A DNA stretch of 64,000 bases from Corynebacterium sp. (GCA_034091885.1 JAXFXA010000052.1:2963-66962), one strand, 5' to 3'; positions 9,101 to 15,100 are shown, counted from the first letter of the stretch. Program-made: the numbers.

Positions 9101-12100
9101 CGTTGGCGTAGGGCCAAGCAACGTTTACTACTACAGACTCAGTCATGCACTCTACTTTATCCAAGCCTGCCGACATTTCAGATTTATGGGGCATCAAAAC
9201 AAAAATGCTGTACTGGTAGTGCGCAGAGACTTTACTCTTAACGCTGCCAATACAGCAGGTCATCTCCTATGACAATGCCCGAAGGACTGACTTATAGGTT
9301 TGCCCCGGGAATCTTGGAAAAACGGCGCTTCGCACGTTCCTTTTCCATCTGTTCGCGGTGGAGACGACGCTCTCGTGCCAGCTTTCGTTGGATTGCCTGC
9401 GCATCACGATATTCAACATAGATCACATCGTTGCTCAGGTCCTTGACGTTTACAAACAGCAGCAGAAGTCCAACGGAAGCGGTAAGGGCACCCCGCACGG
9501 CCGAGAGCCACGGCGAAACGTCCACCCAACTATTTTGAGACATAGACCCCGTCACAGTTGATGCTGAATCCGCTGACGTAATAAAGAACGTGGCCAGCAA
9601 AACCAGTTTCTCCGCACCTTACAAAACTGCATTTCACAACGTTATTGAACGGTGTTAAATTGTGCAGTGTGACTACCTACAGTATCCGAATGCGCGCTGC
9701 CGAAAACGGACACCACATCTCTGGTGCGGAGCGGCTTGTCTCTCCTACAGACCTTCCCGAGCTTTCTGCGGCTATGACGCTGCGCGCTCTCAGCCACGAT
9801 AAGGGAGTGCCCGACACCATCAACATCACGATGGAGCGTGTCGATGAAACCACAATCCGCACCGTTGCCGCTCTAGAGCCCGTGCAAGTTACCAATGCCT
9901 CGCCGGATACTGCCAAAACTCTCATCACGCACATTCTCAAAGAGGCAGGTGTCGCCGCAGCAGACCAAGCCGTCGAGTTTGTCTACTCCCTCACGGGTCT
10001 GCGCGGAGCAGCAATCGTTGACTCCGCAACAGGACACCGCATTGACCCCAATCCTGCCCGAGGCGTGCGTGTGTCCTGCTTCGACGCGATATCGCGCCCG
10101 GATGCGCACTGCGGGAAGAATCATTTCCAGGAGGCACTAACTTTGGCATCCAAGGTCGCTAGTGCACCAGGAATTATCGCAGAAGTGTGTATCTCCGATG
10201 ATCCTCATTACACGCAGGGGTATGTGGCCGCGCAAGGCAAGTACTTTCGAATTCCTAATATGAAAAGCCCAGGCTCAGCCCTGGGGACTCGCATTTTCAT
10301 CGCGGATCCGCATGCTAATTTAGACGAACTTATTGAGTACTTAGAAAACTGTCCAGTCCGAGTGGACTTACCTCCCCTAGCAAGCTCGCAGCCTGTAGCT
10401 AGTCCCCAGTCTCAACCGGCCGCAGCCGCTACGATCCACAAAGCGAGTCTTTCTGAAATCATTCAAGGCCGTAACACCCAGTGGGCAAACGACGGCCTAG
10501 CGCGCACGCTGCGAACTTTTACTTCCCCACAAATTCCACGCTCGACTATCGATGGCAAAGACTACCTTCTCTTTTCTTCCTCGGATTACCTCGGTTTTTC
10601 GACTCATCCTATGCTTATCGATGCCGCAATCTCAGCCATCCATAAATTAGGCACAGGCTCAGGCGGGTCACGCCTGACCACCGGTACCAGCATTCATTCT
10701 GAATTGGAAAATCGCCTGGCGCAGTTCTTCGGGCGTGAAGATGCAGTGCTATTTTCCACCGGCTACCAAGCCAATCACTCAACCATTTCCGCCATTGCGA
10801 CAGAGGAGGTAGCGATCTTTTCCGATAGCGGCAATCATGCCTCGATCATCGATGGTTGCCGCGCCGCAAAGGGGCAGGTCATGGTCTTTCCACATCTTGA
10901 CTACTCCACCTTGGATACGTTGTTGGCGTCCTCAACCGCACGCCACAAGCTTGTCATTTCTGATTCAGTATTTTCTATGTCTGGGGAAGTCATTGATGCC
11001 AAGGCATTGGAAGGCGTGTGCCGTCGCCATGGCGCATGGCTCATGCTTGACGATGCCCACGGGGTGGGTGTTCTCGGCGACCGAGGGAGAGGTGCAGCAT
11101 ATCACGGCGGAATCCACCCCGATATCGTGGTGGGTACAGCAAGCAAAGCCCTCGGTGTGGAAGGTGGCTTTGTCCTATGTGATGCCGAAGTAGGCACGTT
11201 TTTACGCAACCGTGCTCGCAGCTTTGTGTATTCAACATCTATGAATCCAGGCTCAGTCAAAGCTATTGAGGCCGCACTAGAGCTTTTGCAACAAGGCGAA
11301 CGCCTTAGTCAACTCCGCGTGAATATTGCCGCAGTGCGAAAGCTCCTCGCACTACCAGAAGATGACAACGCTAGCGCTATCATTCCACTTCGCGTGGGTG
11401 ACGAAGACCAAGCCGTGCAGCTTTCTGCCGCCCTCGCACACAATGGAATTTATATTCCAGCAATCCGCTACCCCACCGTCCCGCGCGGTGAGGCGATGCT
11501 TCGGCTAACCGTTACCGCCCTACACACCGCTTCCGATATTGACCAACTGGGCAATGAACTACGCCGCCTCGGAATCATCTAAATTCCGCTCTCCGGCGTC
11601 GAAGTTCACGTTCTGCTCCCGTTAGCGGAGAACCTTTAAAAGGCAACGTTGCTAAATCAATTTTCTGCGCTACGACCAGAGCTCTCTCATTTGCTGTGTG
11701 CGCTGCACGAAGCGGTAATCCAATTGAATTGGCAAATTCATCCCAATGTCGAACACGCAGATTTTTAGTTCGCCCAGAAATAGGCAATGCCATTGTCATA
11801 TCACCATAAACCGCTGTGCAGGGGATGTCATAGACTGGAGTAACCTGCCACTTACCTGAGTCATCCTGCACAATGCTGACATTTTTCGCATGGAGGTCAC
11901 TGTTTCCGGTCAACCATGCAAATATGAACTGCAGATAGAGATTTCGTTTGGCAATCATCGGCGCACTAGTCTTCGCGCTCAGTGCGTTGACAACAATTTC
12001 ACTATCAACCGAGTATTTCTTTGCTGGCCAAAGGCCTAGCACTTGCGCTCCATCCTCTAACGCAAGCCTTTGCATCTCTCCTAGAGCATTTACTTTCCGG

Positions 12101-15100
12101 TCGAACCTACGCACCAGCAGTCCCGTGCGATTGTATGAATCGACGATGACCGAATGCTCACTTATGGGAATACCAAGTTCGGCTGCATGAGTAAGGTGTA
12201 GTGATTCATTTATTACTAGATGTGGATGCTCTGGCGGATCAATCTTCAAAATTGACGGCATTCCGGAAAGGCTCACTGGCCGGTTAACCATTGATGCAGA
12301 AGCTTTCGTTTGCACACCGGGAAGCCCGATCCCATCCACCACGTTAGCTATTTGCCCAAAGTCTAGCCTGGTCGCGCCTAGGTCTACCGCCGGTGAGACT
12401 TCTCTTGGTGTGGAACCGTGCGGAACAACACGAACATCGCCAAGCGTATCTCCACCGATCACCAGCAACAAGGTCAATTCATCATCGAGGGATGTTTTAG
12501 TTACATTCCGGATGACTGAGAGTCGATGCCCTTCCGGCAGCAACCCGCTAAAAAACGGTGGCAAAGCCCCACTATCAGTAAAAAATTCATTTTCTTGCAC
12601 AGGCAGTGTGGACGCAACTGCTTGGCCCGAATACTCAGGAAGATATCGAAACACTACACTTCCGGTTTCCGTTCGCCGCAAGTGTCCCGCCAGCGCATTT
12701 CCCTTGTAAACGTCTGCTTTGTCAATAAATCGAAGCCGCGTATAATCCATTAATCACTCACCGCCAGGGATAATCCCAGTACTGCTGTTACGGAAAGGAC
12801 GGCCTTTAGACTTGGACTCCCTGTCCCTTTTTCGATGTCTCGCACAGTTTTGTCTGACAACCCAGCCAGGTCACCTAATTGCTGTTGCGTTAAGCAATAG
12901 GACTTCCGAGTTGACCGAATCTCCTGCCCGATTGACTGCGCCGTCTTATCCGGATCAATATCTGCCATCTCAAACCGCCCCACTTCCTTCACAAGACAAA
13001 ACCGAAGAATCCTTCGGAATTGTCAATTCCAGCACTAAATTTACGCCATTCCATATCAAAACGGAAGAATACTTCGGAAACATCCGCTCTTAAGCCTATC
13101 CGCGGTCTGAATCTCCCCTAATCCGAAGAATACTTCGCATTATCAGACCCGAGGAATCTATTGGATAGTGCTTAATCCTGCTGCAATTTAGCTTGATACA
13201 ACTCTCGATTGGGAATACCTGTGCCGTGTGCGGCTTGTTTACAGGCGTCTTTGAGTCGCATGCCGCTGGCTACTAGTTTATCCACCTCGGTAAGCAGTTC
13301 AGGAAGGTCGAATTCCTTTTCTTGGGCGCCGTCTAGAACTACGGTGATTTCGCCGCGGGCATTGTCTACTGCCCACTCGGCTAGTTCTTGTAGTGTTCCG
13401 CGGCGGATTTCCTCGTAGGTTTTAGTTAATTCTCGGCAGACTGCAGCAAGGCGGCGGGGACCAAGGACAGCGGAGGCATCGGCAAGCGTTGCTGCCAAGC
13501 GGTGGGGGGATTCGAAAAAGACGACGGCGCGTTCTTCATTCTTTAATGACTCCAACCACGAGCGGCGCTGGCCTTGTTTGCGCGGCGCGAAGCCATCGAA
13601 GATAAACCGGCCCACACCCAAACCGGAAAGTGCCAACGCAGTGGGCACTGCTGAAGGTCCAGGAAAGCAGGTCACGTGCACTCCAGCGACGGCAGCGGCG
13701 ACTACAAGCGAATGCCCAGGGTCCGAAACTAACGGCATTCCGGCATCGGAAACGATGAGGACTGTGGAGTGCCGAGCGGCATCGATAAGCTGCTGTGCAC
13801 GGCTGTCTTCATTGTGATCAAAGTTGGATACTACCTGGCCACGAATAGTAACGCCGAGAGCCTGAGCAAGGTTGCGCACCCTGCGAGTATCCTCCGCCGC
13901 GATGATGTCTGCGTGAGCAAGTGCTTGTTTTAATCTGTCGGAGGCGTCACCAATATTTCCTAGTGGGGTGGCTGCGACAATTACGCCGTGAGGTAGTTCC
14001 TGGGAGTTCATATTGTCCATTATGATAATCCAAGTGACTAAGACTGCATCCCAAGCCCGCCCCGCACGCACTGAAATCCTGCCCACTCCCCCGCGGCAAT
14101 ATATCTGGGCGAAAGCGGATACGGTGTCAACCGCAGTTATTGCACTTTTGGCCTTGATTACACGATTTGTGGGGCTGACCAGCACAACTGCTGAAAACAC
14201 CCCCATTTTTGATGAAAAGCACTATGTCCCGCAAGCTTGGGACATCGTGCAGGGAGGCATCGAATCTAATCCCGGCTTCGGTTTGGTTGTGCACCCACCA
14301 TTGGCCAAGCAACTTATTGCCATTGGTGAAGCTTTCTTTGGCTATACCCCGCTGGGTTGGCGGCTGATGACAGCTATTTTCGGCGTCGTTATGGTTCTTG
14401 CGATTATGGCTTTGACCCGCCGAGTTTCTGGTTCCTGGCAAATAGCTACCTTCGCCGGTTTTATTGCAGTCTTCGATGGTGTTTTATTGGTCTCGTCTAG
14501 ATTCGGCATGCTGGATATTTTCCAAGCCGTGTTCGTGGTTGGCGCAGCATGGATGCTAGTCCGTGATCACCAACAGGTGCATTCGCTTTTCGATGCTTCC
14601 TGGCGTCATCAACGCCTTGGCTCCTCCCCGTTCGGTCCGCGCATCGGGTTTCGTTGGTGGCGGTTCGCAGCTGGCATCACCCTGGGTTTATCCCTGGCTG
14701 TGAAATGGTCTGGACTGTACTACATCGCGTTTTTCGGCTTAGCCTCTGTCTTTGCAGACCTGTGGCTCCGCCGACGCTACCGTGTCCGCCGCTATGTCAC
14801 CGGCACTTTGCTGCGTGATACTCCCGCGGCTTTGGCCTCTTTGGTATTAGTCCCTGTCCTCATCTATCTGTGGACGTGGCGCTCCTGGTTTATGTCGGAG
14901 ACCGCCGTGTACCGCCACGCCAAAGTGGACGGCACCATTGCAAGCGACTCACCGCTGATGGCTCTGCCAGAACCAATTGCAGGCTTTTTCTACTATCACG
15001 CCTCGGTGTTGAAATTCCATGCTTCGTTGACCACGTCTAACGGCCACGACCATCCGTGGGATTCAAAACCGTGGACCTGGCTGGTGGCTGGGCGGCCAAT

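What the first reader, a model, noticed from the sequence alone, without database searches (positions are those of the whole stretch)
9292..13171. betP replaced by a bioWF + hipBA cassette, leaving only its 3' tail
Seen: the 102-aa ORF next to metG is a BetP C-terminus (FFITSADSASTV; VKDLSNDVIYVEYR...ARERR). Its upstream frame closes at 9619 and a stretch around TM12 is deleted. Established: betP lies between rsmI and metG in C. glutamicum. Inference: a 3.6-kb cassette displaced more than 80% of betP, trading betaine osmoprotection for biotin-precursor synthesis. The toxin-antitoxin pair may stabilise the swap.
Basis: partly seen in the sequence, partly recalled or inferred. Interest (0 to 1): 0.62.

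Follow-up and report, generated by a model that had tools for sequence, protein, structure and literature searches.

The report
betP remnant beside acquired bioWF and hipBA
In this small Corynebacterium genome the usual betaine-transporter gene between rsmI and metG survives only as a dead 3' stub, and its place is taken by a fused biotin-precursor gene and a HipBA toxin-antitoxin pair that appear to come from different sources; this is real but fairly ordinary genome turnover at a variable locus.

Summary
The ORF at 9292-9600(-) is the C-terminus of BetP (PDB BetP E=1e-22). Its frame is closed upstream by TAA at 9619-9621, and 29 codons (loop plus TM12) are missing in frame. No other piece of betP remains in 9200-13300.

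In 115 genus genomes with rsmI and metG on one contig, most have a 1.8-2.3 kb gap, and the gap held betP wherever I checked, so betP is ancestral here.

The 3.55 kb that replaces it holds two self-contained, convergent modules:
- **bioWF:** a fused gene (GTG 9669-11582) with its own BioQ-type box. It is 64-67% identical to the characterised C. amycolatum-type BioWF.
- **hipBA:** 11575-12992, with 3-4 palindromic operators reaching to 5 bp from the rsmI stop.

The modules differ in ancestry and composition, so a single "cassette" is not shown. bioA, bioD and bioB lie elsewhere, so bioWF completes pimelate-to-biotin synthesis. The genome has no BCCT carrier at all, which is rare (2 of 121 genomes in the genus).

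A functional "trade" and stabilisation by the toxin-antitoxin pair remain speculation. betP loss recurs at this locus; G124 independently keeps a different 3' stub with no insert. Interest is modest.

The parts
7317..9146 (-). metG (methionyl-tRNA synthetase). The start homologous to relatives is ATG 9146; the ORF is open up to 9263.
   Evidence: Pfam tRNA-synt_1g, 468 bits. 74-87% identical to MetG in all 120 genus genomes.
9292..9621 (-). betP pseudogene remnant: a 102-aa ORF from TTG 9600 within a 108-codon open frame, closed upstream by TAA 9619-9621. It corresponds to about TM11 plus the C-terminal domain. An in-frame 29-codon deletion lies at the 9447/9448 junction.
   Evidence: PDB BetP E=1e-22. 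Pfam BCCT positions 402-451, below cut-off. Alignment with 6 orthologues: 61-70% identity, 29-aa gap, conserved W->R and M->T changes. No other betP piece in 9200-13300.
9633..9661 (+). bioWF control region: promoter-like TTCACA-17-TAAATT, with a BioQ-type box TGAACGGTGTTAA (9646-9658) between the hexamers, 10 bp before the GTG start.
   Evidence: Promoter scan (not significant on its own). The same box variant, TGAACAGTGTTAA, lies in the same place upstream of bioWF in 6 C. amycolatum/C. lactis-group loci. TGAAC-N3-GTTCA boxes lie upstream of this genome's own bioB (two) and bioA (one).
9669..11582 (+). bioWF: one polypeptide of 637 aa from GTG 9669. N-terminal BioW (pimeloyl-CoA synthetase), Pro/Ser/Ala-rich linker, C-terminal BioF (8-amino-7-oxononanoate synthase).
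   Evidence: Pfam BioW 242 bits and Aminotran_1_2 190 bits. 66.6% identical to C. amycolatum SK46 BioWF over 626 columns, both termini aligned. A 637-aa NCBI protein is in the cluster. BioF motifs HAS, DDAHG and SKALG present; Tyr at the position of CaBioW F192.
11575..12750 (-). hipA toxin kinase, 391 aa. Its 3' end overlaps the 3' end of bioWF by 8 bp in convergent orientation.
   Evidence: Pfam HipA_C 131 bits and Couple_hipA 64 bits. Aligns to E. coli HipA with SDLHAKN on TDGHAKN and PVYDI on PFYDI. C-terminus homologous to the end in 8 Corynebacterium homologues. GC3 0.429, below the genome's 5th percentile.
12750..12992 (-). hipB antitoxin (HTH_3). The probable start is ATG 12968. Its stop overlaps the hipA start by 1 nt.
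   Evidence: Pfam HTH_3, 37 bits. 47-62% identical to HipB next to HipA in 8 Corynebacterium loci.
12997..13166 (.). hipBA operator array: palindromes CCGAAGAAT(N)CTTCGG at 13002-13017, 13062-13077 and 13122-13137, about 60 bp apart, plus a degenerate fourth copy at 13144-13166. The array ends 5 bp from the rsmI stop codon.
   Evidence: Repeat family D1 and inverted repeats I16 and I23. The same type of palindrome (CGGAAGnATnCTTCCG), in 2-3 copies, lies upstream of hipB in the homologous loci L025-L032.
13172..14011 (-). rsmI (16S rRNA 2'-O-methyltransferase), with an intact C-terminus.
   Evidence: Pfam TP_methylase and RsmI_C. 56-76% identical in 119 of the 120 other genus genomes. C-terminus the same length as orthologues.

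Best explanation
This is a remodelled copy of the conserved Corynebacterium locus rsmI-betP-metG.

About 1.6 kb has been lost: the rsmI-betP spacer and roughly the first 480 codons of betP. A second in-frame 87-bp deletion removed TM12. The surviving 3' stub lacks TM1-10 and TM12, so it cannot be a transporter.

In the gap sit two complete, self-regulated modules placed tail to tail.

1. bioWF. This is a fused pimeloyl-CoA synthetase / 8-amino-7-oxononanoate synthase of the C. amycolatum type. It carries its own promoter and BioQ-type operator. Together with the genome's bioA-bioD and bioB, it closes the pathway from pimelate to biotin.

2. hipBA. This is a HipA kinase toxin with a HipB antitoxin and an array of HipB-type palindromic operators.

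I infer that the two modules arrived separately by horizontal transfer and illegitimate or flank-guided recombination, and that betP decay is a separable event at a locus prone to insertions and deletions. The order of events is unknown.

Shown here: the anatomy, the ancestral state, intactness of the new genes, their different affinities, presence of bioA/bioD/bioB, and absence of any BCCT carrier.

Inferred only: enzyme activity, regulation by BioQ and HipB, transfer, and loss of betaine uptake.
For: - **Ancestral state.** Most of 115 genus genomes have a 1.8-2.3 kb rsmI-metG gap. It held an intact BetP wherever I checked.
- **Remnant.**
- **bioWF is foreign to this lineage.** The species nearest by MetG (85-87% identical) have no bioW/bioF, or have separate genes only 42-47% identical. 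The more distant amycolatum clade (MetG 78-79%) has fused genes 63-67% identical.
- **Different site elsewhere.** In that clade bioWF sits between rplO and secY. That site is empty in this genome.
- **Operator travels with the gene.** The box variant and start region are shared with that clade.
- **Known enzyme.** CaBioWF converts pimelate to AON in vitro (PMC9544090).
- **Pathway is completed.** bioB, bioA and bioD are all above NCBIfam cut-offs.
- **hipBA.** The best HipA matches are scattered over Actinomycetes at 57-64%. GC3 is atypically low. The operator array is conserved with homologous hipBA loci, which lie at other genomic sites.
- **Catalytic motifs kept.**
- **No known betaine uptake found.** There is no BCCT and no OpuAC in a genome scored 99.8% complete.
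- **Deletion and insertion are separable.** See G124 and inserts beside intact betP in other genomes.
Against: - No close relative of this species is available; the nearest MetG is 87% identical. Neither the order of events nor the number of events can be reconstructed.
- bioWF has host-like GC (0.547 against a genome mean of 0.535). Its 65-67% identity to the amycolatum clade is similar to RsmI identity to that clade (65%). An old acquisition, or even old vertical descent with many losses, is therefore not strictly excluded.
- Both genes keep full-length C-termini despite an 8-bp convergent overlap. That is an oddly exact junction for two independent insertions, and it would fit a pre-assembled block.
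- No repeats, integrase or transposase mark the borders.
- ProP-type MFS osmolyte carriers were not assessed.
Confidence: 0.75

Rival explanations
1. One-step swap. A pre-assembled hipBA-bioWF block, flanked by rsmI and by 'betP-metG, was taken up from an unsampled related Corynebacterium. It replaced the resident locus by homologous recombination in the flanks.
For: - The two modules abut exactly, with an 8-bp overlap of intact 3' ends.
- Both outer borders are tight: at most about 30 bp to the betP remnant and 5 bp to the rsmI stop.
- No mobility genes are present, which is what flank-guided replacement would leave.
Against: - No genome or contig other than this one holds either gene above 66% / 64% identity among 5.8 billion proteins.
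- The two modules have different nearest relatives and different GC3.
- They were not found together in any of the homologous loci examined: the C. amycolatum/C. lactis-group bioWF context checked in L044 and the hipBA loci of 8 species.
- Even if true, the block itself must have been built from two sources earlier.
Confidence: 0.2
2. bioWF is an old vertically inherited gene of this lineage that moved within the genome into the betP locus. No horizontal transfer is involved.
For: - bioWF has host-like GC and GC3.
- Its identity to the amycolatum clade (63-67%) is about what RsmI shows to that clade (65%).
Against: - The nearest species by MetG, RsmI and the BetP remnant lack bioW/bioF, or carry unfused genes only 42-47% identical. 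Vertical descent would therefore need many losses plus a paralogous replacement.
- The rplO-secY site used in the amycolatum clade is intact and empty in this genome.
Confidence: 0.1
3. The betP stub is kept for a function rather than being debris. It might be a small membrane protein carrying BetP's C-terminal sensor helix, or the carrier of signals needed for metG or bioWF expression.
For: - The frame is still open over 108 codons, and GGAG lies 9 nt before the TTG.
- Both deletions are in frame.
- An independent lineage, G124, also keeps about 100 C-terminal codons of betP next to metG.
- The bioWF -35 region lies within 15-30 bp of the remnant.
Against: - About ten genus genomes have only 28-80 bp between rsmI and metG, so no betP tail is needed for metG.
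- Conserved residues are altered (W->R, M->T), and identity to orthologues (61-70%) is lower than among orthologues (69-94%).
- The Pfam score is below cut-off.
- This exact sequence is not in the protein collection, so it does not appear to have been called as a gene.
Confidence: 0.1
4. Assembly artefact. The contig joins DNA from different organisms or places; the genome is in 114 contigs with 1.8% estimated contamination.
For: The assembly is a draft.
Against: - A separately assembled Logan contig is 100% identical across 9552-12125 and covers two of the three junctions.
- The flanks are syntenic with 100+ Corynebacterium genomes.
- The bioWF operator matches the genome's own bioA and bioB boxes.
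Confidence: 0.03

Closest known systems
CaBioWF, the natural BioW-BioF fusion of Corynebacterium amycolatum SK46 (UniProt E2MUP3; Richardson et al. 2022, PMC9544090)
   Same: - Same two-domain order, with a disordered linker of similar kind.
- 66.6% identity over the full length, with N- and C-termini aligned.
- Same TGAAC-N3-GTTAA box directly upstream.
- BioF PLP motifs are present.
   Different: - Different genomic site: there it lies between rplO and secY, here in the former betP locus.
- This protein has Tyr where CaBioW has F192. The paper reports that F192Y restores strict pimelate specificity, so this enzyme is predicted (by inference) to be narrow, like B. subtilis BioW.
- Its activity has not been tested.
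C. glutamicum BetP (BCCT family; PDB 2WIT, 4AIN, 9GKK and others)
   Same: The remnant aligns to BetP's last transmembrane region and to the C-terminal osmosensing helix (VKDLSNDVIY.EYR...LARERR) at E=1e-22. It lies in the same place upstream of metG as in most of the genus.
   Different: Only about 16% of the protein is left. TM1-10 and TM12 are absent, so the substrate and Na+ sites cannot exist. It is a pseudogene fragment, not a member that works.
E. coli HipBA (PDB 3DNV, 3TPD and others) and actinobacterial HipBA loci
   Same: - A one-polypeptide HipA with Couple_hipA and HipA_C domains.
- The catalytic-loop motif D-x-H-A-K-N and the YD motif are kept.
- An upstream HTH antitoxin gene overlaps the toxin gene.
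- Several palindromic operators lie upstream.
   Different: - Sequence similarity to E. coli HipA is low (E=1e-17, partial alignment).
- The operator sequence (CCGAAGAATnCTTCGG) is that of the actinobacterial subgroup.
- Toxicity and its target are untested.
C. glutamicum biotin auxotrophy (bioA, bioD and bioB present, bioF and pimeloyl-CoA synthesis absent; BioQ regulon; PMC3398298, PMC5640590)
   Same: bioA-bioD and bioB are scattered, as here, and carry TGAAC-N3-GTTCA boxes. Several of the nearest relatives lack bioW and bioF, like C. glutamicum.
   Different: This genome also carries bioWF, so it is predicted to make biotin from pimelate. The source of pimelate is unknown.

Membership tests
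BCCT transporters (BetP) | Full Pfam BCCT domain (485 positions, 12 TM helices) scoring above the gathering cut-off | tested here: not met
   Only profile positions 402-451 are matched. The score is 23.3 bits against a 27-bit cut-off. tblastn with 6 full BetP proteins finds nothing else in 9200-13300.
BCCT transporters (BetP) | Specific similarity to BetP's C-terminal regulatory domain, and the orthologous position upstream of metG | tested here: met
   PDB BetP E=1e-22, both blocks. 61-70% identity to orthologues. Same locus as in most of the genus. It is therefore a remnant of a true betP.
BioW (6-carboxyhexanoate-CoA ligase) | Full-length BioW domain above the cut-off | tested here: met
   PF03744, 242 bits against a cut-off of 25, profile positions 1-237 of 239.
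BioF (8-amino-7-oxononanoate synthase, alpha-oxoamine synthase) | Fold-type I aminotransferase domain with the PLP lysine and the His/Asp motifs | tested here: met
   PF00155, 190 bits. HAS at residue 390, DDAHG at 461, SKALG at 492. Assigning these motifs to the AONS active site rests on established knowledge.
Natural BioWF fusions (CaBioWF type) | Both domains in one uninterrupted frame, collinear with CaBioWF | tested here: met
   A single ORF with no stop. 66.6% identity over 626 columns. Fused homologues occur in C. amycolatum, C. lactis and others.
Natural BioWF fusions (CaBioWF type) | Sequential conversion of pimelate to pimeloyl-CoA to AON | not testable with these tools
   This needs an enzyme assay or complementation. 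It has been shown only for CaBioWF (PMC9544090).
HipBA type II toxin-antitoxin | HipA N-terminal and C-terminal kinase domains, with catalytic Asp and Mg-binding Asp | tested here: met
   PF13657 64 bits and PF07804 131 bits. SDLHAKN aligns to E. coli TDGHAKN, and PVYDI to PFYDI.
HipBA type II toxin-antitoxin | Adjacent upstream HTH antitoxin gene and palindromic operators | tested here: met
   hipB (HTH_3) overlaps the hipA start. There are 3-4 palindromes at 12997-13166, conserved in type in 8 homologous loci.
HipBA type II toxin-antitoxin | Growth arrest by HipA, neutralised by HipB | not testable with these tools
   This needs expression tests.
Mobile gene cassette / genomic island | Mobility gene, flanking direct or inverted repeats or att sites, and recurrence of the same block elsewhere | tested here: not met
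   There is no integrase or transposase ORF and there are no meaningful flanking repeats. The two modules were not found adjacent in the loci examined, and no closer homologue of either gene exists in the protein collection.

The most novel reading that the evidence does not exclude
The exact tail-to-tail overlap of bioWF and hipA, with no terminator-like site between them, may mean the two modules are coupled by convergent transcription. When BioQ repression is lifted under biotin limitation, bioWF transcripts would run antisense through hipA and hipB and shift the toxin:antitoxin balance. In return, hipBA addiction would penalise deletions that remove the acquired biotin gene. A nutritional signal would then be wired to a persistence kinase.
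Probability: 0.06. Interest if true: 0.55.

Novelty: new member of a known kind. Interest (0 to 1): 0.28.

Why it matters
If the reading is right, this lineage moved from the C. glutamicum-like state (bioA, bioD and bioB present but no BioF, hence a biotin requirement) to pimelate-dependent biotin synthesis by acquiring a single fused gene. It is also one of very few corynebacteria with no BCCT osmolyte carrier (2 of 121 genomes surveyed). Both points are useful for predicting growth requirements and niche: a small, 2.06-Mb genome that is probably host-associated.

The protein is a second, 67%-identical BioWF with Tyr at the specificity position. That may interest people who use CaBioWF as a biocatalyst.

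None of this touches an open question. Gene loss and gain at a variable locus, fused BioWF and HipBA are all known.

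Tried and rejected
1. **Other betP pieces.** I looked for a 5' piece of betP on the rsmI side of the insert or anywhere in 9200-13300, as an insertion into betP would leave. None was found, so this was replacement or deletion, not simple insertion.
2. **Intergenic comparison.** DNA alignment of the intergenic borders with the nearest relatives failed. Even metG is only 73-78% identical at the DNA level, so intergenic DNA is not alignable.
3. **Border signatures.** I searched for direct or inverted repeats or att-like sites at the borders. Only short, chance-level matches turned up.
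4. **Other copies of the locus.** I looked for closer homologues or a second copy via the 5.8-billion-protein search and exact look-ups. The only result was a 2.6-kb Logan contig identical to the window.
5. **Read support.** Junction coverage and transcription remain unchecked.
6. **bioWF at rplO-secY.** I tested whether bioWF also sits between rplO and secY here, as it does in C. amycolatum. It does not; that site is empty.
7. **Promoter and terminator scan.** Hit counts are no higher than in shuffled sequence, so I use only the position of the hit next to the BioQ-type box.
8. **Not done.** I did not build a formal gene tree against a species tree, assess ProP-type MFS carriers, or locate a bioQ gene.

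Full report
**1. What is in the sequence**

ORF listing and Pfam give the following, read along the minus strand: rsmI (13172-14206, TP_methylase and RsmI_C), then hipB (12750-12992, HTH_3), then hipA (11575-12750, Couple_hipA and HipA_C). Next comes a 645-codon ORF on the opposite strand, 9645-11582. It carries a full BioW domain (242 bits) followed by a class I/II aminotransferase domain (190 bits). Then come a 102-aa ORF (9292-9600) and metG (7317-9263).

The 102-aa ORF matches Pfam BCCT only over profile positions 402-451, at 23.3 bits, below the cut-off. It matches C. glutamicum BetP chains in the PDB at E=1e-22 in two blocks.

Alignment with six intact BetP orthologues from the genus shows a single in-frame gap of 29 residues covering the last periplasmic loop and nearly all of TM12. 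Homology starts at LLATFF (about 9603). The frame is shut by TAA at 9619-9621.

tblastn of the six full-length proteins against 9200-13300 finds nothing else. About 16% of betP remains.

**2. Ancestral state**

The window is C52:2963-66962 of a 2.06-Mb, 114-contig genome scored 99.8% complete. I located MetG and RsmI in 120 other genomes of the genus. I then computed the gap between them for the 115 other genomes in which both lie on one contig.

- Most gaps are 1.8-2.3 kb. In about 20 genomes checked by coordinates, the gap holds an intact BetP of about 600 aa on the same strand.
- Ten genomes have only 28-80 bp, so betP is absent there.
- G020 has a metallophosphoesterase gene in the gap, and G091 has three unrelated genes.
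- About 25 genomes have larger gaps. These hold betP plus a chorismate-binding enzyme, an Rrf2 regulator, an ABC-F ATPase or a second betP.

betP is therefore ancestral at this site, and the interval is prone to insertions and deletions. That betP lies here in C. glutamicum itself (cg1015-cg1017) is from my own knowledge. I did not check it on a named record.

**3. The bioWF module**

NCBI's call of this protein is 637 aa, which implies a GTG start at 9669. That start aligns with the start of the fused BioWF proteins of C. amycolatum, C. lactis and related genomes.

These are the closest homologues anywhere: 64-66% identity in the genome-contig scan and in the 5.8-billion-protein search, 63-67% in the genus sample, and 66.6% to C. 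amycolatum SK46. The SK46 protein has been purified and shown to convert pimelate through pimeloyl-CoA to 8-amino-7-oxononanoate (PMC9544090).

The species closest to the window by MetG (85-87%) either lack bioW and bioF or carry separate genes only 42-47% identical. The amycolatum clade is more distant (MetG 78-79%, RsmI about 65%). This mismatch argues for transfer within the genus.

In C. amycolatum the gene lies between rplO and secY. In this genome that site is intact and empty.

Eleven bases upstream of the GTG is TGAACGGTGTTAA (9646-9658). All six amycolatum/lactis-group loci have TGAACAGTGTTAA at the same place. This genome's own bioB has two TGAAC-N3-GTTCA boxes and bioA has one. I recall this as the BioQ operator type; the motif itself was not in the review I read. 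A promoter-like TTCACA-17-TAAATT brackets the box.

The module therefore brought its own control region. Its left edge lies between 9622 and 9633, at most 30 bp from the last betP-homologous codon.

The BioF motifs are present. The residue aligned with CaBioW F192 is Tyr. The paper reports that F192Y restores pimelate specificity, so a narrow substrate range is predicted by inference.

**4. The hipBA module**

HipA keeps the catalytic-loop and YD motifs of E. coli HipA and has a native, full-length C-terminus.

Its best matches are Schaalia hyovaginalis (64%), C. renale (61%), C. cystitidis, Micrococcus and many Arthrobacter (about 57%). In the genus sample the closest homologues (54-61%) are in genomes that lack a close bioWF, and they sit at unrelated sites.

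Upstream of hipB there are three copies of CCGAAGAAT(N)CTTCGG spaced 60-61 bp apart, plus a degenerate fourth. Together they fill 12997-13166 and end 5 bp from the rsmI stop. The same kind of palindrome, in 2-3 copies, precedes hipB in eight homologous Corynebacterium loci. The whole rsmI-hipB spacer therefore belongs to the hipBA module, and the native rsmI-betP spacer (160-190 bp in relatives) is gone.

hipA has GC3 0.429, below the genome's 5th percentile (0.464). bioWF has GC3 0.541, against a genome mean of 0.542.

**5. One cassette or two modules?**

The 3' ends of bioWF and hipA overlap by 8 bp, and both proteins are complete. No integrase, transposase or meaningful flanking repeat is present. 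Ancestry, composition and distribution all differ between the two modules, and they were not found adjacent in the loci examined.

I therefore read the 3.55 kb as two independently derived modules, not as a travelling cassette. A one-step replacement by a block assembled in an unsampled donor cannot be excluded; I give it about 0.2.

Deletion and insertion are separable at this locus. G124 has an independent 5' truncation of betP, with a different breakpoint and TM12 retained, lying directly between rsmI and metG with no insert. Other genomes have inserts beside an intact betP.

**6. Consequences for the cell**

bioB (346 bits), bioA (480 bits) and bioD (106 bits) are present elsewhere in the genome, all above their curated cut-offs. 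bioWF therefore supplies the two steps missing in a C. glutamicum-like auxotroph, starting from pimelate. The origin of pimelate is unknown.

The betP stub is the only BCCT signal in the genome, and no OpuAC domain is found. In the genus survey, 119 of 121 genomes have at least one full BCCT carrier. Only this genome and G136 have none. Loss of known betaine uptake routes is thus likely and unusual. ProP-type MFS carriers were not assessed, and nothing links this loss functionally to the gain of bioWF.

Stabilisation of the region by hipBA is possible in principle but has no support here.

**7. Reality of the assembly**

A Logan contig from run SRR21357814 is 100% identical to 9552-12125.

**8. 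Verdict**

Everything here belongs to known kinds: a pseudogene remnant, a BioWF fusion of the characterised C. amycolatum type, and an actinobacterial HipBA. Interest is modest. The points worth keeping are:
- acquisition of a single fused gene that closes the biotin pathway;
- the rare complete absence of BCCT carriers;
- Tyr at the BioW specificity position;
- the recurrent retention of a betP 3' stub next to metG in two lineages.

Noticed in passing
L041 (G124:C79) 1303-1620, minus strand: A second, independent betP remnant. About 100 C-terminal codons, from WLAAMWG to the end with TM12 intact, lie directly between rsmI and metG in a 552-bp gap with no inserted genes. The breakpoint differs from the window's. 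G124 has only one weak BCCT match genome-wide (E=4.8e-50).
   Followed up: partly
L044 7998-9896 (C. amycolatum DSM 6922); also L043 and L056: In L044 the fused bioWF sits on the opposite strand between rplO and secY-adk-map, inside the ribosomal-protein/secY gene string. That is an unusual place for a biosynthetic gene. The same site in the window's genome (C36:4750-4991) is empty.
   Followed up: partly
G000 C6:38977-39021 and C48:19256-19268: Perfect TGAAC-N3-GTTCA palindromes lie upstream of the genome's own bioB (two copies, 32 bp apart) and bioA-bioD (one copy). Only 11 sites of this motif family occur in the whole 2.06-Mb genome. This suggests a small BioQ-type regulon that the acquired bioWF has joined. 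I did not look for a bioQ gene.
   Followed up: partly
window 9669-11582, residue aligned to CaBioW F192: This BioW domain has Tyr (GKYFRIPN) where C. amycolatum BioWF has Phe192 (DGFFHRIPN). The published F192Y mutant regained strict pimelate specificity, so this natural variant may be a narrow-specificity BioWF.
   Followed up: no
window 11575-11582: bioWF and hipA converge and overlap by 8 bp. No terminator-like site lies on the plus strand before 13219, so bioWF transcripts could read antisense through hipA and hipB.
   Followed up: no
L128 (G058:C4) 289-4179: Two tandem betP paralogues (609 and 619 aa) fill the rsmI-metG interval in G058, and by gap size probably in G135 too. Elsewhere the interval holds chorismate-binding enzyme genes (G085, G122, G021), Rrf2 regulators (G021, G123) or an ABC-F ATPase (G097).
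   Followed up: partly
G136 (genus survey): This is the only other genome of 121 without any BCCT carrier. It is also small (2.0 Mb) and has an 80-bp rsmI-metG gap. Complete loss of BCCT carriers may go with genome reduction.
   Followed up: no
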